DNA from: the human T2T-CHM13v2.0 reference genome, Homo sapiens
DNA: 64,000 nt
Strand: one strand, 5' to 3'
NCBI RefSeq assembly: GCF_009914755.1
Contig: NC_060939.1
Shown: in pieces, positions 1-49,100 of the stretch
Layout: every line of letters starts with the position of its first letter
Numbering within the stretch: position 1 is the stretch's first letter
Made by a program: the position numbers and the translations under genes
The notes under the pieces: model-generated
The model's database searches: none
What the model saw: the letters and a program-made list of their open reading frames with translations, nothing else
Told to the model about the DNA's origin: nothing

Positions 1-124
1 GCAGGCATTGCAGTTTTTGGTGCATCTCATGGATTTGCTGAGCATACTTCTCAGATGTAACAGTTTTCCAATCCAGAAAGCTGTAGTGGATCAGACTGGC
101 ACCGGACCACCAAACAGTGACCAT

Positions 125-909
<785 letters not shown>

Positions 910-32664: not shown

Positions 32665-33081
32665 TGTTACTGGTTGAGGGTAGTTGCCCAGGTTCTTGGT
32701 GTTTTGAACAAAGAATTGGACAAAAGGCACAAGCAAGGCAGCAAAACCTCCAGCAAGAGGCTCAGGAGCACTGGTTACAGAATTTTCTGGGGTTTATATA
32801 CCCTCTAGAGGTTTCCCATTGGTTCACCCTAGTAGCCCGCAACCAGTCTGATTGGTTGAAGAGTAGGCCCACGACCAGTCTGATGGGTTGTGGGAGGGGA
32901 CCAATCAGAGGCACTTTCACTTTCCAGCTGCCACTCAGCAACTGCCATACAGCAAAAGGAGGGATTGCAACTACCATGCAGCAACTGCCACCTTGAAAGA
33001 GAAGGGGTTGAAGAGTAGTCTCTAATATCCAGCACCAGTTGGCCTTAGGTTCCCTGCCTCCAGACCTTATTCTCCTGCAAC
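32665..33081 (-). mobile_element. ERV1 solo LTR (MER51-like)
   Basis: tgttactggttgagg...ccaggttcttggtgttttgaacaaagaattggacaaa; repeated CCAAT/ATTGG boxes. Confidence 0.65.
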
Positions 33082-35559
33082 ATCACCACTGGTTGAAACC
33101 TTACTACAAATCAAGCTGTGAAGTCACTGGAGCCCTGTAGCAAGTCATGTCCCTGTAACGATGAGTGAGCTGACAGCTAAGGGGCTTGCCTAAACCACAC
33201 AGGTCAGTGGATCAAACCCCAGTGTGCTTGTTTTTCAAACTCCTGCTTCACATGGTTGTAAGAATTAAATGAGATATCAATTATCTCATAGATAGATGTA
33301 GGAGCTCCATGCCCAACCACTGACACTGAGATATCCCTCTTCTGGGAGGGGAGAGGGAGCAATGAGGAAATAGAGGGCAGACAGGGCAGCAAAAGCAGTC
33401 TGAGGGGCCTCTCAGGAGGAGGCAGTGTCTATAGCTGGGTCTGCAAGGATGGAAGGGGGCATTGCTGTGTGTCTTAGGGAAAGGTGCCATACTTCTCTGT
33501 TTCTCTGCCTGTAGAGTAGCTGCCAGCTCCACCTCACACGCCTCTGGGGTAAGGGAGCTCCTCCAAGGAAGGAGATTTGTAAATAGCAGGTGTGGCCTCA
33601 TTAGAGGGAGCACCATTGTTATTAATAACCATAAAATAATGAGCCAAGGCTCAGGATCTGACCTTTTACCTTGCATTCCCAGGGAGCCAGGAGAAGTAAC
33701 TGGTGTCTGGGGTGGGGTGGAAGAGGAGTGTGTGTGTTGCATGTGAAACCTGGGCAGACCTGGTAGTGGTAGGGGTGGGGTGGGGTGAGGAGAAACCTCC
33801 TTTTTACACTACTTTCTTTTTCTGTGTTAACTCTACTCGGGAAGGCCATATAAGGACAGACTGTTCCCTTCTCTGCTTTTATTCACACTATTCCTTCTGA
33901 TTAGAATATCACATCTCTGCAAGACCACAGTCCTGATAAAAACATGTGGAGCTCCCAAGGCAGTTATCTTGTATTGATTGCCTTCATTCTCTATAGGCTC
34001 CACAGACGACCATTGGTATAGGGAGGAAAATGGCAAGGTCAGAGCCTTCAGGAGCTCATAGTCTGGGGACACTCTATGAGCTTCCTAGAGTTTACAAGCA
34101 ATTTCCCACACTGATGTTGGCCGACACCACAGTTGCTAAGGCAGGTCTCTCACTGCTCCCTTTTTGCAATGAGGAAATTTGAGGCTCAGAAAGTTACAAA
34201 GTAGCTCCCAAGTCCCCCAGTGTTGCCTCCTTTCTTTGGCAGTCCAGGGTGTTTAAGTGATGCCGAAAAGGAACAGACATACTGTTGAGTGGGGCTGCTG
34301 TCTGTGTGAGGTGTCCCTGAATTAACACAAGGCTCAGCAGTGCTGCAAATCTTAACTAGCCCCTATTGTCTCAGATGGCTGCTCATCCTGGCCTGGTTGG
34401 GTCCCATTCCAACTCAGGGAAATTGGAGAGACCACTGGGCACATCTGAGCACACAACCTGAGCGTCCTAGACCCCAAGGGCTAAGAACACAGCCCTCCTT
34501 CCACCCCACTAGCAGGGCAGGGACAGGGTCGCCGGCGCGGTGCTGGAGGAGGAGGGGCGAGCAGAGTTGGTAAGGGGCAAGAGCAGTGAATAGCCTGTGA
34601 CCCACGGGGCTGCAGGCTGGGGTTAAGGGTATGATGTTTGGTGTGACCCCTAGCTGTCCGCGCGCAGATGTATTTTCCTGACGCTAAGGTGTGGCTGCAG
34701 GAAGGGCCCCAGGCTGGGAGCCAGGAGATCTGGGATTTTGTCCCAGCCTGCTGAGTGACCTGGGGAAAGCCCCAACCCTCTCTGAGTGTCTCTCCCTATA
34801 TGGTTCCCGACTCTATTTCTAAGGTCCTTCCAGCTCTAAATGAAGTGACACTCTCCCCCCACCTCCCGCCCCCGCTCCCCAGGTGACCTCACTTCCTCTT
34901 CCTACCTGCAGCGCCCAGCCCCTCCTCCTCAGCTCCAGCTGCTCCAGCTGCTTGGTGATTCTTGGAACCTGCAGCCTCAGGCCTGCTCTGCTCTGACTCA
35001 GGCAGAACTTACCTTTGGGATCTGAGGGGATAGTTTTGCTTCCTGAACTGACTCTGACCTTTGGCATGTCCACCTGCCCTCCCCTTCCCCACTGCACACA
35101 CCTGTTCCCAGTCCTCGGGCAGCCCAGGAGCTTTGACGGACCAGATTCCTTCAGATAAAGTAGCAGCACTGAGGGGCTCTCATCCACAGTCAGATGGTCC
35201 AGGGAGAGGCACCCCTTCCCCCCTCCAGCCTCTCTTTGCAACACACCATTCCTGGCTGGGCGTGCTCCACTCCACCCGCCTCACAGGCTGCGCGCCGGTC
35301 TGCCTCATGGAGGGAGCCTCACCCAGGCTACTTTGCAAATCCCCCAGCACCCTCATTCCCGGCCCTTCCAGGGATGGGGAGATTGCCGCTTCCTCAGACA
35401 GTTGCCGTGCCCTAGCAGGAGTCTGGAAATTGCCCTCATTGACTACAACGAAATGAGGGGACAGATCAAGGAGCCCTTCTCCAGCCCCCTAATACACTAG
35501 TGCTGGACAGGGGAATGCCGGCACCTACTGTGTGCCAGATATTTGCAAACACCCTTTTC

Positions 35560-37200
35560 CAAGCTTACACCGCCACCGCTATGAGGAAGACAGAATTCCA
35601 CTTTTGCAAATAAGGAAACTGAAGCTCAGCGAGGTCAAGCGGCAGGCGCAAGGTCACATCGCAGCAAGTGGCAGTGAATGAACGATCTAAGGGAGCGACT
35701 GAGGGCGCGTGACGGGCCCGCCGGGCACTGGTTCGTGGAGCGTGGCGGTTACGGGCGGTGCACAGCGCCCGCAGCCCGCTCCTAGCGAGCTGGCCCCACG
35801 CGGGCCCTCCGCACCCGCTGCCCACAGGAGCGCAGGCTCCCAGAGGCGGGGCCGGGCTCTTCCCCAACCCTGCGAGTCGCCCCGCCCCCGCCCCGCCCCC
35901 AGCCCGCCCCGCCCGGGACCGCAGACGGCGCCCAGCGGCGGCGCGAACGGCAGCTAGGAGGGTTGCTCCGGGCTTGGTGCTCACTGCGACTTCCCGCGCA
36001 GGGCCCGGTCGGACTAGGACCCGCGGCCTGAGAGACGCTGGAGGATGCGGACGCGGAGGCCGCCTGGGGTAGCGGCGGCGGGAGTCCTGGCGCTCTGCAG
36101 GTAGGAGCTCGCCCGCTCGGCGGGCGCGGAAACTTGGGCCGAGTTTGCGGGCGGCGCGTGGAGAAGGGGCGGGTGGCGCTGCCCCAGGGCGCCCCTACCG
36201 GCCGGCCCGGGGACTGAGGGAGCCGCGCCTGGGCCGAGGGGCTGCGGCTTCTGGCTGCCGCCGGCCCCCCGCGAACGGGCTGCGGGGCAGGGGTGGCGCT
36301 GCTGCTCCGACTTTCCCCGGACTTCGAGGCTCCCGGGACCTGGTAGCGCTCTGGGTCTCCGGCGGAGAACAGGCGCCTAATCTGGCGAGAAGGAACTCAG
36401 GCCGAGCCCTCCGGCCTCCCGCAGGACCCTGTCACGTGGATTGCTGGGGGATGGCGTTGAGGAGGAGGTATGGGGACAAGGGGGCACTGGAGGGCTGGGC
36501 CTGGGGGCGCCGGGCGCTGAGGCACCGCGGGGCCCTGGACGCGCCCTGCTGGGATGGGACGGCCCTGCGGTTTTCTCGCCACCTCTTGACTCACCCCTCT
36601 GGCCTCAGCCCAGGCTGGCAGGATCGCCCTGAGGCGGAGGCTGCCCGGACCCTGTCGCCGGGCCGCCCCTGTTCCGGGACCTCCCGCCGGTCCGCGGGCG
36701 TCGGTGTGGGGCTGGGTGCGCGGGCCTGCCTGCGTGCACACGTATGCCCGGGGCCCGAGCGAGGGGAGAGCGCAGTTCTGGAATGGCGTGTGTGCAGATG
36801 TGGGCCATGCACGTACGTGCAGGCACGGGTTTGCATGCGTGGCGGCGGCCTGTGTGTCAGCCTGCTGGATGCACGTGCGTCTCGGCGCCGCCGGGAGGGG
36901 CTTGGGGACACCCGGAAGCCCGCCAGGTCGGGTGCGGCGGCAGCCTCTAAGCGAAATCGGCTGTGGGCCCTAGGCACCCGAGTTATGTTCAGGGCGGGTA
37001 GGGGAAAGGGGATAGAGACCGATCCCGTTCGCTTTCCCCTCCACTGGAGACTTTGGGCTGCCCCAGGTTGGGTTGTAGCGTCTGGAGAGCCCAGAGCCTC
37101 AGGTAGGGAAGGTGGGAGATGGGAGAACACTCGGCGAGGCCCGATCCAGCCCTCCAGGAGAATCCAGATGCTGGCCACAATTGGGCAGGAATCGCGCTCT
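35560..37200. promoter_or_regulatory. C15orf39: CpG-island, TATA-less promoter of C15orf39
   Basis: Very high GC and CpG content; clustered GC boxes cgccccgcccccgccccgcccc at ~35878-35915. Confidence 0.9.
35930..36100 (+). other. C15orf39: C15orf39 non-coding exon 1 (start approximate)
   Basis: Donor CTGCAG|gtagga at 36100/36101, just downstream of the GC boxes. Confidence 0.7.
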
Positions 37201-38504
37201 TCTTCCTGGTCTTTGCCATCGGCCATCCCGAGGCCCCTAGAAGGTGAAAGTGGGAACAGAGAGCTGTTTCCTTTCCCACTGCGTAAGGCAGGGGCGGTGC
37301 TGCGGTGGTGGGCTCTTCTCCGGGACCCTGGCCTGGGTGCTGGCTGAGTGACGTTGGAGCTTGGCAGAGAGGATCAACAGAGCTGCCTCTCAAGGATGAT
37401 CTGAGCCTGCTCCCTGGGCACCTGCCCTTTCCGAGAGCTTGCTTGCCTCAGTATGGGTCAGGGAAGGAGGCACCTACATTTTGGCAACTGTCTTGAGTGG
37501 AGGAGTCGTCTCCCTTGAGAGAGTGTATCCTGGGCTTTCCACCTCCTACTGGCAGGAGATCAGGTCATTCCCACACCCCTAAGAGTTCTCTGTTGGCTCC
37601 CTGAAGCCGCCACCCCTCCCACAAAGACTCCTGAGGGTCCCAGGTGGTTTCCTGTCTATTGACTGGGTCCCAGATAGGGGCCTCAAGAAGTCTCCAGAGC
37701 AAAGGGTATTCCATGGGCTGAGACCCAGGAGAGAGGGACTCCTGGGGTGGGGGTGGGGACCCAGCAGACCCCAAGAAGCATGTGGGGGAGGTGAGACCAA
37801 AGTCAGTACTTAACCCAGAGTGTCCCAAGGGTGGAGGTGGGGAGGATCCACACTTCAAAACCCTACAGTTCCTTCTCACAGCATTGCTGTGGAGTGAGAT
37901 GGGGGCTTTCACCCCTCGATAGCAGGTTTCTATCATAGGACACTGCTGTTGGGACTGTCACCTGTGTCCTAATGGCCCCTCTGTGTCTTCTCTAGGCTGG
38001 CCTGAGGTGTGGGGTTCTGTCCAGGAAATGAACCAGCTTGCTTTCTGGGTCTGCCTTGGTGGAAGTGGGCATTGGCCCCCACACTAGCCTTGTGTTTTCT
38101 AACCCCAAAATGTGCCGGTCTAACTCAGCCTGTGGCTGTCATTGGCTCCAACCAGAAGAGGCAAGGAGAGGGCTGGTCCTTGCTTGCCAGTCACTGAAAC
38201 CTGTGACACTTTGCCCTAATCATAGCAAGATTGAGCTAGGTGGTCCTTTCTAAGCTACTGAGAGTTTCCAGGAATAGGGTGCTGGCTGGGGGAGGTAGAG
38301 GTAGGTCAGTGTGGCCCCAGAAGACAGGCTTCAGATGAGCCCCTAACGGGTTACTGGGTGCCTGCTGCCCTGAGGGGCCTCAGTCCCCATCCTTCCTTGG
38401 TCTTGTCTTAGAGCTTTGTCTTTTTTCAGCACATAGTTTTTCCATCAATACAATGGGAGTAGTGGCTAAGTAGCACTCTGGCCCCTGGGGCCTCCCTCCC
38501 TGGA

Positions 38505-38850
<346 letters not shown>

Positions 38851-39584
38851 ACCTCCCTGGACTTTCACACACGCCCCTGACGCTGTCTTGGCCCCACCCT
38901 GCCATGTGCCTAGGAATCGCCATCTGCAGCTTGGGGGCTGGGGGTGGATCCAGGCTCCTCATGCTCTGGGACCTTCCTGCTGGTGCTGCAGCACCATCTG
39001 CTGGGCTGCCCTGACTCCTGCGGAGGGGGAGGAGTGGGGCGAGAGGGGTGTGGCTTGTACAGACTGATGTCCCCAGTTACCTCTCCTAGGGGACTGCTCT
39101 CCAGAGCCAAGTCCAGTATCTCAGCATTGGCTTTGGGCCTAGGGACCTGGGCTGGAGGCCCGACTCTGCCATTTTTGACAAGATCAGCAGGTCAGAGGAG
39201 TGTCACAAGAAATCTGTGAATTTGTAGACAATACTCAGATTCCATGTTTTGGCTGCAGTGGGCATCACTGTGGCATCTTGGAATAGGACCCTGTGGTGGG
39301 AGGCAGGAGGCCTGCTTCTCGTTGTGTCTATTTCATTGGTGACTTTGGGATGAATGGGTCTCCTCATCTGTATATGAGGGGGTGGCGGCAGGGTATGTCA
39401 AGTGACCCTGAGACCCAGTGCCCCTACAAATTCTGAAATCCCAAGAAGGAGGGGATCTTGGGAGTTGTATGGAGGAAAATCGAACAGAAGGGGCTCCTGG
39501 AGTGGGGATGGGTGGGGGTTCTGTGTAGAATAATTCATTAAACAAAGGGTTCTGCAGCTTAAAATATACGAGTTGGGGTCAGGA

Positions 39585-39861
39585 GCAGTAGGTGGTTCAT
39601 GCCTGTGATTTCAGCATTTTGGGAGGCCAAGATGGGAGGATCACATGAGTCCAGGAGTTCAAGACCAGCCTGGGTAACATAGTAAGACCCTGTTTCTACA
39701 TAAAATACTAAAATGAGCCGGGTGTGGTAGCAGGCACCTGTGGTCCCAGCAACCTGGGAGTTGGGAGAATCACTTGAGCCCAGGAGGTTGAGACTGCGGT
39801 GAGCCAAGTTCATGTCATTGCACTCCAGCCCGGGCAACAGAGTGAGACCCTGCCTCAAAAA
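39585..39861 (+). mobile_element. Alu (AluJ-type) in C15orf39 intron 1
   Basis: Alu dimer with short A-tail. Confidence 0.88.
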
Positions 39862-40089
39862 ATACATACACGAGTTGGAAACCTCTGTCACGTGGCTCAT
39901 GCACTCACAGTCTTAACTGAGCATCATTTAAGCGCCAGGTTCTTAGGTGTAGCCGTGAGCTGATGAGAGCAGCAGCCCTCTGTTGCTTTGCCTGTAGCCT
40001 GTTTTCCTGACAGCCCCTGCCTTTCTCTCTCTATCCCAGGTCAGAAGTTGAGTAGCAGGGGCCTAGGAGGGCTCGAAGCCTTCACAGCG

Positions 40090-42865
40090 ATGGCAGAGAA
40101 GCGACCCCTGAGAACCCTGGGGCCTGTGATGTATGGCAAGCTGCCCCGCTTAGAGACAGACTCCGGGCTCGAGCACAGCCTGCCCCACTCTGTTGGTAAC
40201 CAGGATCCCTGCACCTACAAGGGGTCCTACTTCTCCTGCCCCATGGCGGGTACTCCTAAGGCCGAGTCTGAGCAGTTGGCGTCCTGGACCCCATACCCAC
40301 CCTTGTACTCTACCGGTATGGCAGGACCCCCACTTCAGGCAGACAACCTGCTGACCAACTGCCTGTTCTACCGCTCGCCAGCAGAAGGCCCTGAGAAGAT
40401 GCAGGACTCCAGCCCTGTTGAGCTCCTGCCCTTCAGTCCCCAGGCTCACTCCTACCCAGGCCCACCACTGGCAGCACCCAAACCTGTCTACCGCAACCCT
40501 CTGTGCTATGGGCTCTCAACTTGTCTGGGGGAAGGAGCAGTGAAGAGGCCACTGGATGTTGACTGGACTCTGGCGACTGGGCCCCTGTTGCCCTCAGCTG
40601 ACCCACCCTGCTCTCTGGCCCCAGCTCCTAGCAAGGGCCAGACTCTGGATGGCACCTTCTTGCGGGGGGTGCCAGCTGAGGGGTCCAGTAAAGACTCCTC
40701 AGGGAGCTTCTCCCCATGCCAGCCCTTCCTGGAGAAATATCAGACCATCCACAGCACGGGCTTCCTGGCCTCCAGGTACACAGGTCCTTACCCTAGGAAC
40801 TCCAAGCAAGCAATGTCTGAGGGGCCCTCAAGTCCTTGGACCCAGCTGGCCCAGCCCCTGGGGCCACCCTGTCAGGACACCGGGCCCACCCACTACCCAC
40901 CACCCCACCACCCACCACCCCACCCTCCACAGGCCCTGCCTTGCCCTCCAGCCTGTCGCCACCCAGAGAAGCAGGGCAGCTACAGCCCAGCACTCCCACT
41001 GCAGCCTCTGGGGGGCCACAAGGGGACCGGGTACCAGGCTGGTGGGCTGGGCAGCCCCTACCTGAGGCAGCAGGCAGCCCAGGCACCTTACATTCCCCCA
41101 CTGGGGCTGGACGCTTACCCCTACCCCTCTGCCCCTCTCCCAGCACCCTCTCCAGGCCTCAAGCTGGAGCCGCCTCTCACTCCACGGTGCCCATTGGACT
41201 TTGCCCCCCAGACACTGAGTTTTCCTTATGCCCGGGATGACCTCTCTCTCTATGGAGCATCCCCTGGGCTTGGAGGGACACCACCTTCCCAGAACAATGT
41301 GAGGGCTGTGCCACAGCCCGGTGCCTTCCAGAGGGCATGCCAGCCTTTGCCAGCGAGCCAGCCCTGCTCAGAGCCTGTGAGGCCTGCACAGGAAGCCGAA
41401 GAGAAGACCTGGCTGCCCAGCTGCAGGAAAGAGAAGCTCCAGCCCCGGCTCAGTGAGCACTCTGGGCCGCCCATCGTCATCCGAGACAGTCCAGTTCCCT
41501 GTACCCCCCCAGCACTGCCCCCCTGTGCCCGGGAGTGCCAGTCTCTTCCACAGAAGGAGGACGCAAGGCCACCCAGCTCTCCACCAATGCCTGTCATTGA
41601 CAATGTCTTCAGCCTGGCCCCCTACCGTGACTATCTGGATGTGCCGGCACCCGAGGCCACAACTGAGCCTGACTCTGCCACAGCTGAGCCTGACTCAGCC
41701 CCAGCCACCAGTGAAGGTCAGGACAAAGGCTGCAGGGGGACCCTGCCTGCCCAGGAGGGCCCCTCAGGGAGTAAACCCCTAAGGGGCTCACTTAAGGAGG
41801 AGGTAGCCCTGGATTTGAGTGTGAGGAAGCCCACAGCAGAGGCCTCCCCTGTCAAGGCTTCCCGTTCTGTGGAGCATGCCAAGCCTACTGCAGCCATGGA
41901 TGTGCCAGATGTGGGCAACATGGTGTCAGATCTGCCAGGCCTGAAAAAGATAGACACAGAAGCACCAGGCTTGCCTGGGGTGCCAGTGACCACAGATGCC
42001 ATGCCAAGGACCAACTTCCACAGCTCTGTGGCCTTCATGTTCCGAAAGTTCAAGATCCTCCGTCCGGCACCTTTGCCTGCAGCCGTGGTCCCGTCCACGC
42101 CCACCTCAGCTCCTGCTCCCACACAGCCTGCACCCACCCCCACATCTGGGCCCATTGGACTGCGGATTCTCGCTCAACAGCCCTTGTCTGTGACCTGCTT
42201 CAGCCTGGCACTGCCCAGCCCTCCAGCCGTAGCTGTGGCCTCCCCTGCCCCTGCTCCAGCTCCATCCCCTGCTCCGGCTCGAGCTCAGGCTCCAGCTTCA
42301 GCCCGGGATCCAGCTCCAGCTCCAGCTCCAGTTGCAGGCCCTGCTCCAGCATCTACTTCAGCCCCAGGGGACTCCCTGGAGCAGCATTTTACAGGACTAC
42401 ATGCGTCCCTGTGTGATGCTATTTCTGGCTCCGTCGCCCACTCTCCTCCAGAGAAGCTTCGCGAGTGGCTAGAGACGGCTGGGCCCTGGGGCCAGGCTGC
42501 GTGGCAGGACTGCCAGGGTGTGCAGGGGCTGCTGGCCAAGCTGCTGTCTCAGCTGCAGCGCTTCGATCGCACCCACCGGTGCCCCTTCCCCCATGTGGTG
42601 CGAGCTGGCGCCATCTTCGTGCCCATTCACCTGGTGAAGGAGCGGCTCTTCCCTCGGCTGCCACCCGCTTCTGTGGACCATGTGCTGCAGGAGCATCGTG
42701 TGGAGCTGCGGCCCACCACGCTGTCGGAGGAGCGGGCACTGCGGGAGCTCGCCCTGCCAGGCTGCACCTCACGCATGCTGAAGTTACTGGCGCTGCGCCA
42801 GCTGCCGGACATTTACCCCGACCTTCTCGGCCTGCAGTGGCGCGACTGTGTACGCCGCCAGCTGG
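40090..42865 (+). CDS. C15orf39: C15orf39 (PRMT2IP) coding exon 2, codons 1-925 (+1 nt)
   Basis: Acceptor ctttctctctctatcccag|G at 40040. ATG 40090 in good Kozak context (gcgATGG), MAEKRPLRTLGPVMYGKLPRLE... Proline-rich open frame; donor CTGG|gtgagc. Confidence 0.95.
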
Positions 42866-44789
42866 GTGAGCATGGGGCAGCCCCAGTGGCCACCGGAGCT
42901 GTGTGAGCAAGTGACAGGTGTGTGTGCTGTGTGAGTGCGTCACAGCTGGGGCTGAGTGATTCCAAGGACTCCTGCCCGGGTAGGGGGCTTTAGGATGAGC
43001 TCTAGGTACCCCCACCCCTTGACCCTCCAGACAATCAGTGAGCACCTTCATAGCCTCTTTTGTAGGCTTCTGAACATGCCAGCTGCTCTGTCCCCATGGA
43101 AACTCCTCGGCCTCCCCTGGTGCTGCACCTTCTTGGATTCCCTCCTCCTCTGCCTGTGCCTTCTCCATCTTTGGTGCAGTGTTTCCGGCACTCTGGTTAG
43201 GCCCTGTTTTCTAGCTGAGATAATTTCCCTGATCTCCAGCCTAGCATCCCCTTTGTGAGCTCTAGCCCTAAATAACCCACTGCATGCTGGGCCTCAGCCC
43301 CTGGGTCTCTCTCCCACACTGAACTCATCCCAAATCACACTCCCGAGCCTTCCCCTCAGCTCACTTCCCACAACCAGTTCTTTTCCATGTCAGTGAAGGG
43401 CACCCCCTTTCACAAAGCTCCTCATGCTCTAGACCTGGTGAGGGCCACAGCTGCCTTTTTGAACGTGTAGTTTTGCAGTCCTCCCCGGCCCTTGCATACA
43501 CAGAAGTGTGCGCATAAGTCGCATTGTTTTGTGGTTTGCTTTTCCTCTACTAAATGATGTGCCTGCTGTTCTCCAGCTTGTTTTCTTTTAATGTCCTGGA
43601 GGACCACACAACTGCCGAAGTGTTGTGTGGCGTGTATGATCACACTTCTTCAGCTAGGGATCTGGTGATGGGACCAAGTGGATTCTGTTATTGCCCCTCC
43701 TGCGTCAGTACACCTGGCATTGCAGCCTGAGGCCCCCTCTAGTTTTTCTCTCCCTGCTGCCCCCAATTCCACCCTCTCCCATTTCCACTGCCCAGCCTCT
43801 TCCCTGTAGAAACTGTTCCTAGTTCCATCCCCGTAGTGGCAGCCTTGCCCCGGGCCCTTACCTGGTTGGGATGGGGAAGGGCCTGTGGCAGTGAGGTGCA
43901 GATGAGCTTAGGGGCTGGCTGACCAGAATCCCTGATCCCTGAGTACTTACAAAATTGGAGCAGATGCCTTAATGGGATGCAAAGGAAATCCAGACTCAGG
44001 CGATCTGTTACTGAGTGAGGGTCCCACATCACTCAGGGCTGGGCTGCCCAGCTCAGTCCTCTCCCCATACAGTTGGGCTGTCTGGGGCCCAGAGAGGGTC
44101 AGGTCTGTTTCTCCTGGGCTGCCTGATCAGCAGTGGAGTCTGGGCACTCCACACAGTCCGAGGTGCTCTGACTGGAGCTTGCAACAATCGGGGGGCCTGG
44201 GAAGCAAGTGATTGAGACCAGGCTTCTGGCTTCTGGCTGAATTTTGTTGCCCCTGTCCTCACTCCCTCCCACCTTGGGGGCCGTTTTTCTCTGTGTGCCC
44301 CTAGACAGTTATCCCTGCCTTCCTTTGTTGTGGGTGGGTTCCTGTGCTCCCCCAGCATGGCTCTTAGGACAGTCCCTACCTGGGCTCGGCCTCGGGCTTG
44401 GGCTTGGTCTCTGGGGCTGGTATGGCAGAAACATGATGGCTGTCTTATATATGGCAGGGTCCTCTGTTCCCATGCCTCAGTTTTCCATCTGAGCAATGGG
44501 TATTGGACCAGGCCAATGGTTCCTGACCTGCTGAGCCCCTTTGCTCTCATCCTTGTACCCAAACAGCCTCTCCTGAGTGGTGCCCTCATCAGATAGAGTT
44601 CTGGTGTCACCTGGGGAGAAGCACATCTTTTTTGCTTGGATGGTCTGGCCAGTGGGCATGTGTGGGGAAGAGTTGTGATGCCAGCCTGACTTGGGGCAGA
44701 GCAGAAGCACTGTTTGGATGGCTTTGGAAGCCAGGAGGTGGGACCTGAGGGTATGGGGTCTGCAGGCTGACTATGTGTTCGTTTTCCAG

Positions 44790-45157
44790 GTGACTTTGAC
44801 ACTGAGGCTGGAGCTGTGTCCTCCTCAGAGCCCACTGTGGCCAGAGATGAGCCAGAGAGCCTAGCCCTGGCTCAGAAGTCACCGGCCCCCAAGGTCAGGA
44901 AGCCAGGCAGGAAGCCACCAACCCCTGGCCCGGAGAAAGCAGAGGCAGCTGCTGGGGAAGAGTCCTGTGGTGCCTCCCCTACCCCTGCTACCAGTGCCAG
45001 CCCACCTGGCCCCACACTGAAGGCCCGCTTCCGCAGTCTGCTGGAGACCGCCTGGCTCAATGGCCTGGCTCTGCCCACCTGGGGCCACAAGTCCTCAAGA
45101 CCAGACCAGCCCTCACCCTGCCCACAGCTGCTGGACAGCCAGAGCCATCACCTGTAG
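44790..45157 (+). CDS. C15orf39: C15orf39 coding exon 3 (G|DFDTEAGAV...SQSHHL*)
   Basis: Acceptor gttcgttttccag|GT is phase-1 compatible. Spliced total 925+1+121 = 1047 aa, matching the length I recall for C15orf39. Confidence 0.93.
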
Positions 45158-46183
45158 CACTGGTTGCCAGTGCTGTGTGTATAGCAGTCACTCTCCACCC
45201 TTCCCTTCTGCCTGCCCAGCTGCCCCGGGGCCACGAGTGGATGCTGGGGCTGTGGCTGCTCCCCTGGAGGGGTTCCATCTCTGACCCTGTGGCCCATTCA
45301 GGGTGGGCTGAAGAGCCCCTGAGCTTTTAACGTGAGGGTCTTTATTGGATAGGACTACTCCCTATTTCTTGCCTAGAGAACACACATGGGCTTTGGAGCC
45401 CGACAGACCTGGGCTTGAATCCCGGCTCGTGTTCTTGCTGCAGGACCTGGGCAAGAAACTTCACCTCTGCTGAGCCCTCATTCCCCATGTGTAAAATGGG
45501 ACAACGCAACCTACCTCACAGGGTTGTTGTGGGGATGCTGCCTGATACATACCCTGTCACCATTTGGTCTCTGCTTCCTCTCTGGGACAGGGCCTAGAAT
45601 TGGAGGCAGAGAACCTTCCTATAGAAAGTCTTCGTGTGTCCTAGGACTTGGCTATCGTAGAGTGGTACCTTAGGCAGTGGATGTGACTCACACTTTCAGG
45701 AGTCACCCCCCAGCATTTGGGGTTGGGTTGGCCCTACTCCAGCCTGGAGCTCCCTGAGGGAGCCTGCACTCCCTGCTCCCAATCCCCGCTACTGGTGCAG
45801 GGATGCAGCCTGGAGCTGGCGTCCTTGTTCTGGGCCTGCTGCTGCCGCCACCCCAGGAGGCCCCAGGCCTGTCCTGAATTGACATCAGTGCTTCCCTGAA
45901 CTGCCTCCCCCACCCCTGGCATTATCCCAGGAAACTTATGTTTTCTAGAAGCTAAGCAGCTGCTGGGACTCAGGGACTGGTGCAGGTAGGCTGAGTGGCA
46001 GCTCAGTCCTAGAAGGTCTCTGAAGATCTGGACTGAGGACCCTGCTACTCCCCAAGCCAGAGCCCATCAGCCAGGCCTGCTGTGAGCCACCTGCCTGTGG
46101 AGTGCTGAGCTCAACCAAAGGCTGGCAAGCTCTGGGCCTCATTTAAGGGATTCTGATGAGCCGATGGGCCCTGGAGGCAGCCC

Positions 46184-46189
46184 ATTAAA
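46184..46189 (+). terminator. C15orf39: Poly(A) signal ATTAAA of C15orf39
   Basis: ATTAAA about 1 kb after the stop, followed by a U/GU-rich downstream element (gtttttgg...gtgtgtttgg). Confidence 0.7.
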
Positions 46190-49100
46190 GCATCTGGCTC
46201 GTTTTTGGAAGTGGGGCCTGTCCGTGTGTTTGGGGATGGTCGGTTTCATGTTCCGTCACTGTGTGCTTAGCCCTTTGCTCGCAGGCTGCTCTCCCTGCTC
46301 CCAGTCCAGAAGGTGCTTCTGCACCCTCGTGCAGATGGCTGTGGCTCTGTGGACCCCTCTCACACACATACTTGCTTGCTCTGGGAAAGCCCTCTCTCCT
46401 GAGACCCCGTGGGTCCTCGTGGTTGTTGGTCTGTGGGCTACTGCCTGGTGAGAAATGCTGGTCATTAGACCCAGCACGTGCCTCTCTCCCAGGGCCAGAC
46501 ATGTCTTTCATGGTCTGGGTAGAACTGTTACAGCCTCCCCATTGCTGGTGACCATGCATCCCACTGACCTTAGCTTGGAGGGTGGGGGGTAGTGTGCTGG
46601 GCCCACCCTCTGGAGACCCTGCCCCTGCTGGGCTCTGTTCCCCCAGAGGCTTGTTCTCAGGGCAGCTAAGGTGGCTTCCTGGGCCTGTCTTCCCACTCCC
46701 CCTGGGCCAGGGGCCAGTCCACTGGGGCTTGTTGGACCTGTGTGGCATCCTGGTGGTGGTCACTGAGCCCAGCTGCACTGTCCCTCCTGTGCCAGCCTGG
46801 CCTTAACACTAGGCTGGGATTTGGAGTGGCAGCTGCCATTGTCCCCTTCCATTGTTCATATAGGCCCAAGAAGAGCTACTGGGCTGTGAAGGGATAGGTA
46901 ACCACAACACATTGTGGCTGCTGCAGTGACAACCAGGGTGGAGGGTCCTTGGGTCCCAGAAGAGGTGATACCTGAATTGGACCTTGAAGACAAATACAAA
47001 ATCACATGCAAAGTGGGGTCTGGGTAGAGAGAGCCGCACGTGCAGAGTCTTGGTGAGTCTGGAACAGGAAAATCCCCAGGCGAGGCTGGAGCTCCCAGAA
47101 CCAGAAGGGGCAGGAGCAGGGCTTGGAAGCCTGGCTAGAAATCCAGCAACCCAGGGACTCAGTCCCACAACCTGAAGAATGGGGGTGTGAGCCACGTGGA
47201 ATCATTTGACACTACTACAGGGAGGAAAGAATTGCAGTGGAGGTGGAGTTTCTGAACTCTGGGCCCCCCGGGCCCTGGGCAGCCATGGGCACCTCGTCAG
47301 CCCCATCAGTCACATCCATCTCATCGTCAGCACCTTAATGGAGTGAGCGCTTTATTCCTTTTCCTTCGGTCCTCCCTTCCCGCCGTCCTCTCCTCTCCCT
47401 CCCTCCCTTCACACCTGTGCCCCTGCTGTATGCCTGACACACATCTTACCAATGGTGACCAGGCAGAGTGAGGGCTCAGAACAGGTAGGGCTTCGCACCT
47501 GGGTTCCTCTGTGGCCCCAGAGGACTCAGAATGGTGCAGAGGCCAGGCTGGGGTGGTGGAGAGCCAGGCCTGGCTGGGGTGGTGGAGAGCCAGGCCTGGC
47601 TGGAGTGAGGTGCTGCTCTGCGACGACAGCTCTATGCAGGGAGGCCCTCTCTTCCCCTGCACCAGTCTGAGGGAAGAGACTTAACCCGGACTTGGGAGTT
47701 CTAGTCTAAGGAAGGAGATATGACAGTGTCCCAGGGACCCCCAGTCTGAGGTGGTGGGGGCAGGAACCAGACTCTGCCCAGGACTCCTAGTCTGAGGGAA
47801 GCAGCGCCCTACCTAGGGCTGCCACCCCTAGGGCAAGGAAGGAGTGAGGGCAGTGGAGTGTGCTGGCCCCGCCCCCACCCCCAAGGAGACCCGAGCAGGT
47901 CCACCTAAGAATGGGGCTCAGGTGAGACCCAGCCTCACCATGCCCCACCTGGCACCCTAGCCCAATACAAAAGGCAAAGGGCCTGGGCGGCCGGCTTTGC
48001 TGACAGGAGTGGAGCTAGCAAGGTAGTGAGTGGGAAGGATGACAGCCCTGTCTTGGGGGACTCGGAGAGTAGGAGCTGGGAAGGGGAGAGGGGCTCCCCG
48101 GACAGAGTCGTCTCATAGGGAACAGCACCTCCAGCCAGGCTCAGCACTACACCACCCCAACCTGGCCTTGGCAGGGACCCTGGTGCTGAGCCCTGCTTGT
48201 CCTGAGGCCTCATTCTGCCCTGTCGCTGCTGGCAACGCCCATGTCTGGGGTGTTGTGAAGACCCCAAAGCCCCTTCGTGACTCCAGACGCCTCTTTCCCT
48301 CTGTCATTCCTGGCCTCATTGATGTTCCTCTTCCCGTGAGTTTGTTCTCACTAAGGGGGTTGAGTTGAGCCAGCTGAGTCTTCCCTCAAACCTCCTTTGG
48401 GGATCCTCGGAGCAGGACCCGACTCTGACCTGACTGGCTGTGACTCTTCTCATCCTGCAGTTCCTGTGCCGGAGAAGGGAGGGCCGAACCCCGAGCCCAG
48501 CCTGCTGCCCCAGCTGGTGGTGGGAGGCGGGCCATGGGGACGCTTCAGCCCGTGGACATGGCCTTGCTGCTGGCTATATGCTGTGCTCTCTCCATGGGCA
48601 GCTCCCCAAGACCCCACCTCCAGACACCCCCTCAGTGGGGAGCACCCAGTGCAGCTCTTCTGGAGCCCTGTCTGCCCAGGAGATGGGAATGGGGGAATGC
48701 CGCCAAGCCCCTCCTGTCTCTCCTGCTGCACATGGACCCCTTTTCCAGGGTGGCGGGAAGCTGGGGGCCTCCTTGAGGACGCTGCTGCCTCCATGGGGAC
48801 TCCAACTCTGGATGTTCTAGCTATGGCCCACTCAGAGGTGCCTGTGTCGATGAGCCCTCCACCCCTCCTGCCACAGCCCCTAGCCTCAGCCTGCCTGGCC
48901 ACTGTTCCTCCCACACCCTGCCTTTGTCCAAGAGGGGCCCAGCTTCCAGGTCCCTGTGATTTCTTAGGACAATTGGAACCCAGGGTCCTAGGAAGGGGTG
49001 CTGAGCCCCTTGGAAGGACCTCAAGGGGCCTCTTCTATGATTTCTGGGTTTGTCAGGGGATCCCTTGCTTCTTCAAGAGCCTCTGATAAGGCATCTGCAG

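What the first reader, a model, noticed from the sequence alone, without database searches (positions are those of the whole stretch)
42586..42828. C15orf39 residues 833-913 look like an unannotated SKI/SNO/DAC (Dachshund-homology) domain
Seen: the otherwise proline-rich protein has a globular-looking segment FPHVVRAGAIFVPIHLVKERLFPRLPPASVDHVLQEHRVELRPTTLSEERALRELALPGCTSRMLKLLALRQLPDIYPDLL. Against the SKI domain as I recall it ([25 protein letters not shown]...CTADQLEILK...CGLITKTDAERLCNALL) it aligns without gaps over 81 residues with hydrophobic positions in register. It shares R-x-LR-x-L and KL(I/L)...(L/I)Y with DACH1. Knowledge: this winged-helix-like domain occurs in SKI, SKIL, SKOR and DACH corepressors. 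Inference: C15orf39 may be a divergent member of that superfamily.
Basis: partly seen in the sequence, partly recalled or inferred. Interest (0 to 1): 0.7.

Follow-up and report, generated by a model that had tools for sequence, protein, structure and literature searches.

The report
Hidden SKI/Dachshund-type fold in C15orf39
The one strongly conserved, folded part of the uncharacterised human protein C15orf39 is predicted to have the same fold as the Dachshund-homology domain of the SKI/SNO/DACH co-repressors, which gives this protein a testable role in gene regulation.

Summary
Window 42586-42828 (+) encodes the quoted 81 residues, C15orf39 residues 833-913. They coincide with the only long conserved blocks of the protein.

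[quoted passage not shown] - A scan of the human genome with Ski_Sno_DHD finds 7 loci, none of them this one.
- hhalign gives probability of 3% or less, against 92% for SKIDA1 versus SKI.

The fold test is positive. An AlphaFold2 model of residues 760-925 is confident (pLDDT 92.5, pTM 0.87). Two independent structure searches of the PDB rank the three solved Dachshund-homology domains first:
- The matched stretch is residues 829-915.

Verdict: a cryptic, very divergent Dachshund-homology-type fold with extra helices and no CLPQ motif. No paper in the searched library describes it. Its function is inferred, not shown.

The parts
42586..42828 (+). It is the conserved core of the folded module.
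   Evidence: Translation. Conserved blocks 831-854, 863-883 and 895-913.
42574..42834 (+). Dachshund-homology-type alpha/beta core, residues 829-915 (model residues 70-156). It has a beta hairpin at 836-838 and 841-845, helices at 846-853, 859-868 and 878-886, a short strand at 899-901, and the start of the last helix.
   Evidence: Secondary structure of the model. Aligned range 70..156 against 3eq5, 1sbx and 1l8r.
42370..42573 (+). N-terminal helical extension of the module, residues 761-828 (four helices). This part is not present in the solved SKI/DACH domains that matched.
   Evidence: helices at model residues 2-25, 28-37, 43-46 and 52-69, with block pLDDT 81-97. Conserved F, L, H, C and W positions. 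Non-eutherian homologues carry about 24-29 extra residues in the loop after residue 799.
42793..42861 (+). Long C-terminal helix, residues 902-924. It begins as the last helix of the Dachshund-homology-type core and runs on to the end of exon 2.
   Evidence: helix at model residues 143-165. Exon 2 ends at 42865 and is followed by GT.
40090..42865 (+). Coding part of exon 2 (925 codons plus one base). It is mostly proline-rich and poorly conserved.
   Evidence: Pfam DUF5525 covers residues 1-925. Conservation profile.
41578..41631 (+). Conserved linear motif, residues 497-514 (SPPMPVIDNVFSLAPYRD).
   Evidence: Mean identity 0.84 across 42 homologues. Its partner is unknown.
41806..41829 (+). 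Conserved [V/A]-L-D-L-S-x-[K/R]-K motif, residues 573-580.
   Evidence: Column listing. The resemblance to CtBP-binding motifs of the GLDLSKK type is recalled, not tested.
44790..45157 (+). Coding part of exon 3 (C-terminal tail, predicted disordered by composition). Its end aligns with the point where non-mammalian homologues continue into a Spindlin-type Tudor-like exon.
   Evidence: Translation. tblastn of marsupial tails hits 45005-45133 at E 1.6e-7 to 2.2e-6.

Best explanation
Residues 833-913 are the core of the only folded module of human C15orf39, about residues 760-925. The alpha/beta core of that module (829-915) adopts the winged-helix-like fold of the Dachshund-homology (SKI/SNO/DAC) domain. 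It is wrapped by four extra N-terminal helices and an extended C-terminal helix.

The most likely origin is a very remote homologue of the SKI/SKIL/SKOR/DACH/SKIDA1 domain that has drifted beyond what sequence profiles can detect.

Inferred mechanism: C15orf39 is a long disordered scaffold that works next to transcription factors. The Dachshund-homology-type module is its docking unit.
- I favour protein-protein docking, as in SKI (about 0.5). The family-invariant surface candidates include two glutamates at the start of the helix that corresponds to the putative recognition helix.
- Non-specific DNA or nucleosome binding, as in DACH1 and DNTTIP1, is second (about 0.3).
- The conserved short motifs in the disordered part would recruit further partners.

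Shown here: the sequence, its conservation, a confident predicted fold, and the ranking of that fold against the PDB. Inferred: common ancestry and every functional step.
For: Conservation.
- The segment is conserved across 127 library proteins with E of 0.001 or less, down to members 24-31% identical (28-37% in the core), which carry no Pfam domain other than DUF5525.
- Invariant positions are P832, R838, P845, R874, P875, T877, E880, E881 and L899.

Predicted fold.
- The AlphaFold2 model built on 47 aligned sequences has mean pLDDT 92.5 and pTM 0.87. All five models score 91.0-92.5.
- Foldseek against 350,542 PDB chains: ranks 1-9 are 3eq5 chains, rank 11 is 1sbx and rank 14 is 1l8r_B. Probabilities are 0.96-1.00, target-normalised TM 0.61-0.73, rmsd 1.9-5.0 Å. 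The other listed rows have probability 0.15 or less.

Register.
- hhalign's best local alignment with the mixed 7- and 11-sequence profiles is that same register over 54-58 columns.
- It exceeds 194 of 200 column shuffles and 196 of 200 block shuffles.
- The hydrophobic pattern correlates best at that register, out of 127 shifts.

Context.
- C15orf39 was a high-confidence proximity prey of 8 of 21 embryonic transcription-factor baits (supplement file 8 of PMC10933267).
- Non-mammalian homologues end in a Spindlin-type Tudor-like repeat.
Against: No sequence method reaches significance.
- Pfam gives no Ski_Sno_DHD hit, even at E up to 10, for the human protein, for 11 domain sequences, or for 10 full-length homologues including 4 of the 5 most distant.
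- The human-genome scan with PF02437 finds 7 loci and not this one.
- A profile search of PDB sequences finds only amphiphysin, at E 0.44.
- hhalign probability is 0.2-3.0%.
- With SKI-only or SKIDA1-only profiles, 3 of 4 best alignments are short (16-29 columns) and in other registers.
- The positive control, SKIDA1 against SKI, gives 92% and E 6.4e-7.

Other points against.
- The ungapped alignment to SKI scores -12, no better than shuffles. SKIL's best ungapped register is a different one.
- The CLPQ motif is not conserved. The equivalent columns read P, I/M, L/H/Y, V/L.
- The structure is predicted, not solved.
- The only functional paper places the relevant activity in the cytoplasm with PRMT2 and maps no C15orf39 domain (PMC11173073, passages read).
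Confidence: 0.72

Rival explanations
1. The DUF5525 core is an independent family that arrived at a similar small alpha/beta winged-helix-like arrangement by convergence. It shares no ancestry and no function with SKI/DACH domains.
For: - No significant sequence or profile similarity.
- CLPQ is absent.
- The module has extra helices on both sides that the solved domains lack.
Against: - All three solved Dachshund-homology entries, and nothing else, stand 1.7-3 Z units above the rest of the PDB. They cover 85-86 of 94-106 target residues at 2.1-2.5 Å.
- The sequence-only best register agrees with the structural boundaries.
- The empirical hhalign score is exceeded by only 4-6 of 200 shuffles.
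Confidence: 0.2
2. The module is a DNA- or nucleosome-binding domain of the DACH1/DNTTIP1 kind. C15orf39 would tether its disordered scaffold directly to chromatin.
For: - The core is mildly basic: net charge +3 and pI 9.4 in human, with a family median of +3. That is like DACH1/2 (+3) and unlike SKI/SKIL (-3 and -2).
- DACH1 and the DNTTIP1 domain bind DNA, and DNTTIP1 also binds nucleosomes (PMC4344507).
- Ancestral forms carry a Spindlin-type Tudor-like repeat.
- C15orf39 lies close to transcription factors in BioID.
Against: - Net charge is a crude measure. No surface could be computed here.
- Two invariant glutamates (E880, E881) sit at the start of the helix equivalent to the putative recognition helix.
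- The family range of net charge runs from -9 to +6.
Confidence: 0.3
3. The resemblance is an artefact. AlphaFold2 reproduces a fold it has memorised, and the segment in reality folds differently or only on binding a partner.
For: - Only one model and one alignment were tested.
- A second, core-only prediction could not be run.
Against: - All five models have mean pLDDT 91.0-92.5 and no segment falls below 50.
- Conservation is very strong and follows a periodic hydrophobic pattern that matches the predicted elements.
- No templates were used.
Confidence: 0.06

Closest known systems
Dachshund-homology domain of SKI and SKIL/SnoN (PDB 1sbx, 3eq5; Pfam PF02437 Ski_Sno_DHD)
   Same: - The same order of elements: hairpin, two helices, a short strand, a helix, a short strand, a helix (the order in SKI is recalled).
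- Buried hydrophobic columns coincide in one ungapped register.
   Different: - 12-15% identity.
- No HMM match.
- CLPQ is replaced by P-[I/M]-x-[V/L].
- SKI's first strand region is not matched one-to-one (5-residue offset).
- C15orf39 adds four N-terminal helices and a longer last helix.
- The core is basic rather than acidic.
- There is no adjacent SMAD4-binding domain (Pfam).
DACH1 Dachshund-homology domain (PDB 1l8r)
   Same: - Shared R-x-L-R-x-L and K-L-[I/L]...[L/I]-Y strings in register.
- Similar net charge, +3.
   Different: - 15% identity.
- DACH1 has a 2-residue insertion after the first helix.
- DNA binding by DACH1 is documented (quoted in PMC4344507). It is untested for C15orf39.
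SKIDA1 (most divergent human Pfam member of the family)
   Same: It scores BLOSUM62 +18 with 12 identities in 81, and 0 of 300 shuffles reach it.
   Different: SKIDA1 is still recognised by the Pfam model at 58.6 bits and by hhalign against SKI at 92%. C15orf39 is recognised by neither.
C-terminal domain of DNTTIP1, a MiDAC histone-deacetylase complex subunit (PDB 2mwi)
   Same: - It is a precedent for a cryptic SKI/SNO/DAC-type fold with no sequence similarity and no CLPQ.
- It has extra helices at both ends and sits in a chromatin regulator (PMC4344507).
   Different: - DNTTIP1's DNA and nucleosome binding is experimental.
Pfam DUF5525 (PF17663)
   Same: C15orf39 is the defining member. The segment maps to profile positions 803-883 of 1017.
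   Different: The Pfam entry covers the whole protein and is described as of unknown function. It does not single out the folded module.

Membership tests
Pfam Ski_Sno_DHD (PF02437) | Match to the family HMM above the curated cut-off (24.5 bits) | tested here: not met
   - There is no hit at E up to 10 for the human exon-2 protein, the 81-mer and a 155-residue piece.
- There is also none for 11 domain sequences or for 10 full-length homologues including 4 of the 5 most distant.
- The human-genome scan gives 7 matches (58.6-164.5 bits) on C1, C3, C13, C23, C18, C15:65.6 Mb and C10. None is at the window.
Pfam Ski_Sno_DHD (PF02437) | Profile-profile similarity to known members | tested here: inconclusive
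- The score of 16.9 is reached by 6 of 200 column shuffles and 4 of 200 block shuffles; the reversed profile scores 11.4.
- With subfamily-only profiles, 3 of 4 best alignments fall in other registers.
- Control: SKIDA1 against SKI gives 92%.
SKI/SNO/DAC (Dachshund-homology) fold | Compact alpha/beta winged-helix-like fold that superposes on 1sbx, 1l8r and 3eq5 | tested here: met
   - This was tested on a predicted model only (pLDDT 92.5).
- Foldseek ranks 1-9, 11 and 14 are these entries.
SKI/SNO/DAC (Dachshund-homology) fold | CLPQ motif at the end of the hairpin and start of the first helix | tested here: not met
- A 2-residue slip would put the invariant P845 on the motif's proline. No residue-level superposition was available to check this.
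SKI/SNO/DAC (Dachshund-homology) fold | Conserved buried hydrophobic positions | tested here: met
- The correlation is 0.41 over 108 columns, the best of 127 shifts; the next is 0.28.
- The invariant glycine of the hairpin turn (SKI G117) faces G840, which is glycine in 98 of 102 sequences.
DACH1/DNTTIP1-type DNA-binding Dachshund-homology domains | Basic surface and binding to DNA or nucleosomes | not testable with these tools
   Only net charge could be computed. It is +3 and pI 9.4 for the human core, against +3 for DACH1/2 and -3/-2 for SKI/SKIL. This needs EMSA and nucleosome pull-down.
SKI-type co-repressors | Binding of N-CoR/SMRT, SKIP or SMAD proteins through the domain | not testable with these tools
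   The searched papers hold no such data. The only reported partner is PRMT2, with no C15orf39 domain mapped (PMC11173073).
Pfam DUF5525 (PF17663) | Match to the family HMM | tested here: met
   1795.9 bits for exon 2 and 177.8 bits for the 81-mer alone, at profile positions 803-883.

The most novel reading that the evidence does not exclude
C15orf39 is the surviving eutherian form of an old chromatin co-regulator and represents an unrecognised branch of the SKI/DACH superfamily.

The ancestral architecture would have been a disordered scaffold with short docking motifs, a Dachshund-homology-type module, and a C-terminal Spindlin-type methyl-lysine-reading Tudor repeat. What remains is a scaffold that keeps the docking module and acts beside transcription factors, possibly as a co-repressor adaptor.
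Probability: 0.3. Interest if true: 0.7.

Novelty: new variant of a known kind. Interest (0 to 1): 0.58.

Why it matters
C15orf39 is a widely expressed human protein with a single functional paper (PMC11173073) and a Pfam label of 'unknown function'. Assigning its one folded module to the SKI/SNO/DAC fold links it to a small class of transcriptional co-repressor domains found in SKI, SnoN, DACH, SKOR, SKIDA1 and DNTTIP1.

That assignment gives clear construct boundaries (about 760-925, with the core at 829-915). It also names invariant residues to mutate: R838, R874, T877, E880 and E881. And it points to concrete assays, namely DNA or nucleosome binding, N-CoR/SMAD/HDAC co-precipitation, and tethered repression.

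It is a second example, after DNTTIP1, of this fold surviving where sequence similarity has gone. The Spindlin-type tail of non-mammalian homologues independently points to chromatin.

One limit on novelty: a public AlphaFold model of this protein probably exists, so structure-based domain catalogues may already list the fold. I could not check those catalogues.

Tried and rejected
Sequence routes that gave nothing.
- phmmer of a 155-residue piece against PDB sequences found 0 hits at E up to 10.
- A profile of 11 sequences against PDB sequences found only amphiphysin, at E 0.44.
- Pfam on the distant homologues gave only DUF5525 plus noise.
- Pfam on the 7 human Dachshund-homology domains showed no DUF5525 cross-hit.

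Attempts to enrich the SKI/DACH profile.
- The two large-database searches returned almost only SKI orthologues and SKIDA1 orthologues.
- They added little diversity: 11 sequences remained at the 90% cut.
- Subfamily-only profiles made hhalign worse.

The profile search of 1.84 billion representatives found 127 proteins at E of 0.001 or less. I ran nine of the eleven weakest through Pfam: six of them carry DUF5525 and no other domain above cut-off, and none carries Ski_Sno_DHD. The family therefore did not bridge to SKI/DACH.

The fold result therefore rests on one model. The N-terminal helices were not searched on their own, so I make no claim about their fold.

Literature. These searches of the held library turned up no paper describing the domain:
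- 'DUF5525': 0 papers.
- 'C15orf39' with 'Dachshund': 0 papers.
- 'C15orf39': 91 papers, 30 listed.
- 'Q6ZRI6': 3 papers.
- '1700017B05Rik': 11 papers.
Subscription journals and structure-based domain databases were not searchable.

Rejected idea: a human paralogue with the same module. PF17663 hits only the gene itself and a partial chr1 copy of its 3' end.
Full report
**Observation.** Translating the annotated coding part of exon 2 (40090-42865) gives a 925-residue open frame in which they are residues 833-913. Exon 2 ends one base into a codon and is followed by GT. Exon 3 continues in frame from 44792.

**Conservation.** A search restricted to residues 760-925 found 473 proteins at E of 0.001 or less. 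Of the 120 listed, every one that carries a family name is called a C15orf39 homologue, from primates down to reptiles and birds at 55-67% identity.

In 42 vertebrate full-length homologues, only five blocks reach 60% identity or more: 129-134, 497-514, 831-854, 863-883 and 895-913.

A profile search of 1.84 billion representative proteins found 127 hits at E of 0.001 or less. Nine of the eleven weakest were run through Pfam: six carry DUF5525 and nothing else above cut-off. The most distant members are 24-31% identical over residues 760-925 and 31-39% in the core. Nine positions are invariant across 47 aligned sequences: P832, R838, P845, R874, P875, T877, E880, E881 and L899.

**Sequence-level tests of the SKI/DACH idea.** These are negative or weak.
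- Pfam reports only DUF5525. There is no Ski_Sno_DHD hit, even at E up to 10, for the human protein, for 11 domain sequences, or for 10 full-length homologues including 4 of the 5 most distant.
- Scanning the whole human assembly with PF02437 gives 7 matches and none at this locus. They are the SKI, SKIL, DACH1, DACH2, SKOR2, SKOR1 and SKIDA1 loci. The names SKI and SKIDA1 were confirmed; the others are inferred from sequence and position.
- I translated those seven domains from the genome (alignment A2) and compared profiles. hhalign gives probability 0.23% with the 11-sequence C15orf39 alignment. It gives 0.8-3.0% (P 0.015-0.068) with a 102-sequence alignment, and 1.7% with an 11-sequence SKI/DACH profile.
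- With these mixed profiles the best local alignment is always the same 54-58 columns, residues 857/858-911/915 against SKI 134/135-188/190. Its score of 16.9 is reached by 6 of 200 column shuffles and 4 of 200 block shuffles.
- With SKI-only or SKIDA1-only profiles, 3 of 4 best alignments are short and in other registers. The control, SKIDA1 against SKI, scores 92% and E 6.4e-7.
It is the best register for SKIDA1 (+18; 0 of 300 shuffles reach it) and for SKOR1/2. SKIL's best register is a different one.

Sequence therefore gives at most a faint, consistent hint.

**Fold-level test.** AlphaFold2 on residues 760-925, with 47 aligned homologues and no templates, gives mean pLDDT 92.5 and pTM 0.87. 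All five models score 91.0-92.5. The model has:
- four N-terminal helices;
- a beta hairpin (836-838 and 841-845);
- helices at 846-853, 859-868 and 878-886;
- a short helix at 894-897 and a short strand at 899-901;
- a long last helix at 902-924.

Foldseek against 350,542 PDB chains finds no match at E of 0.001 or less. Its ranking is nonetheless telling.
- Ranks 1-9 are chains of 3eq5 (the SKIL domain), rank 11 is 1sbx (SKI) and rank 14 is 1l8r (DACH1).
- For these rows E is 0.11-0.86, probability 0.96-1.00, target-normalised TM 0.61-0.73, and identity 12-15%.
- Every other listed row has probability 0.15 or less.

- The family was named beforehand.
- Every solved member of that family, and nothing else, tops both searches.
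- Almost the whole target domain is covered at low rmsd.
- There is a clear gap to the next rows.

**Register.** That is exactly the C-terminal end of the structural alignment. The N-terminal end differs by five residues (SKI 101 rather than 106), so an indel near the first strand is likely.

Column by column, the hydrophobic fraction of the two alignments correlates best at that register. It is r = 0.41, the best of 127 shifts, and the next is 0.28. Twenty columns are hydrophobic in both alignments, and the invariant hairpin glycine of the SKI/DACH domains faces G840.

The CLPQ motif, described as characteristic of the family (PMC4344507), is not conserved. The equivalent columns read P, I/M, L/H/Y, V/L.

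**Context and mechanism.** The disordered part holds three conserved short motifs: residues 129-134, 497-514, and [V/A]-L-D-L-S-x-[K/R]-K at 573-580. The last resembles CtBP-binding motifs. That resemblance is recalled, not tested.

Long non-mammalian homologues end in a very conserved module of about 70 residues. Of 18 PDB sequence matches at E up to 10, 17 are Spindlin-1, -2, -3 and -4, at E 1.9e-6 to 2.6e-4. The best human genomic match is the second Tudor-like repeat of Spindlin-1.

This tail is absent from 70 of 70 eutherian-like and 4 of 4 marsupial sequences in hand. It is present in 2 of 44 bird and reptile models and in 28 of 117 representatives. Three of the four marsupial models stop exactly at its first six residues, and the human exon-3 end aligns there.

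C15orf39 was a high-confidence BioID prey of 8 of 21 embryonic transcription-factor baits (supplement of PMC10933267). The one functional paper reports co-precipitation with PRMT2, and protein in both cytoplasm and nucleus. It maps no C15orf39 domain (PMC11173073, passages read).

The core is mildly basic (+3, pI 9.4), like DACH1/2 and unlike SKI/SKIL.

My reading is that C15orf39 is a scaffold acting beside transcription factors, and that this module is its docking unit. I put protein-protein docking first, because of the invariant glutamates on the helix equivalent to the recognition helix. DNA or nucleosome binding comes second. All of this is inference.

**Novelty.** The following searches of the held library found no description of the domain: 'DUF5525' (0 papers), 'C15orf39' with 'Dachshund' (0), 'C15orf39' (91 papers, 30 listed), 'Q6ZRI6' (3) and '1700017B05Rik' (11). 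Structure-based domain catalogues could not be consulted and may already list the fold.

**Limits.**
- The result rests on one predicted model.
- No residue-level superposition or surface calculation was possible.
- Common ancestry is not demonstrated.

Noticed in passing
Window 45005-45157 (end of the exon 3 coding part); homologues P0128, P0130, P0136, P0151, P0164, P0190, P0204, P0217, P0235, P0236, P0086, P0110: Long non-mammalian C15orf39 homologues end in a very conserved Spindlin-type Tudor-like repeat of about 70 residues. PDB hits to Spindlin-1, -2, -3 and -4 have E 1.9e-6 to 2.6e-4. No eutherian or marsupial sequence in hand has it (0 of 70 and 0 of 4). The human genome holds no copy apart from the Spindlin genes themselves. 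Three of the four marsupial models stop at its first six residues, and the human exon-3 end aligns there. The last exon therefore seems to have been lost in the line leading to human.
   Followed up: partly
Window 41806-41829 (residues 573-580): The motif [V/A]-L-D-L-S-x-[K/R]-K is conserved across most of 42 vertebrate homologues. It resembles CtBP-binding motifs of the GLDLSKK kind. That resemblance is recalled and untested.
   Followed up: no
Window 41578-41631 (residues 497-514) and 40474-40491 (residues 129-134): Two further short conserved islands lie in the disordered region: SPPMPVIDNVFSLAPYRD (mean identity 0.84) and APKPVY (0.78). They are likely docking motifs with unknown partners.
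   Followed up: no
L013 = G000:C1:44042402-44044617 (matches window 44945-46162): Chromosome 1 carries a partial copy of the 3' end of exon 3 (coding end plus 3' UTR). It is 85.7% identical over 1,228 bases, on the opposite strand, and still has an open 72-codon stretch. It is probably a truncated retrocopy.
   Followed up: partly
Window about 42484-42486 (after residue 799), within the N-terminal helices of the module: Marsupial, monotreme, bird and reptile homologues carry about 24-29 extra, lysine-rich residues in the loop between the second and third helical elements. Eutherians lack them.
   Followed up: no
Whole gene (window 32928-46210): In the supplement of PMC10933267, C15orf39 is a high-confidence BioID prey for 8 of 21 embryonic transcription-factor baits, against 6 of 102 baits in an earlier data set (adjusted p 0.015). 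The main text lists it beside MIDEAS and DNTTIP1.
   Followed up: partly
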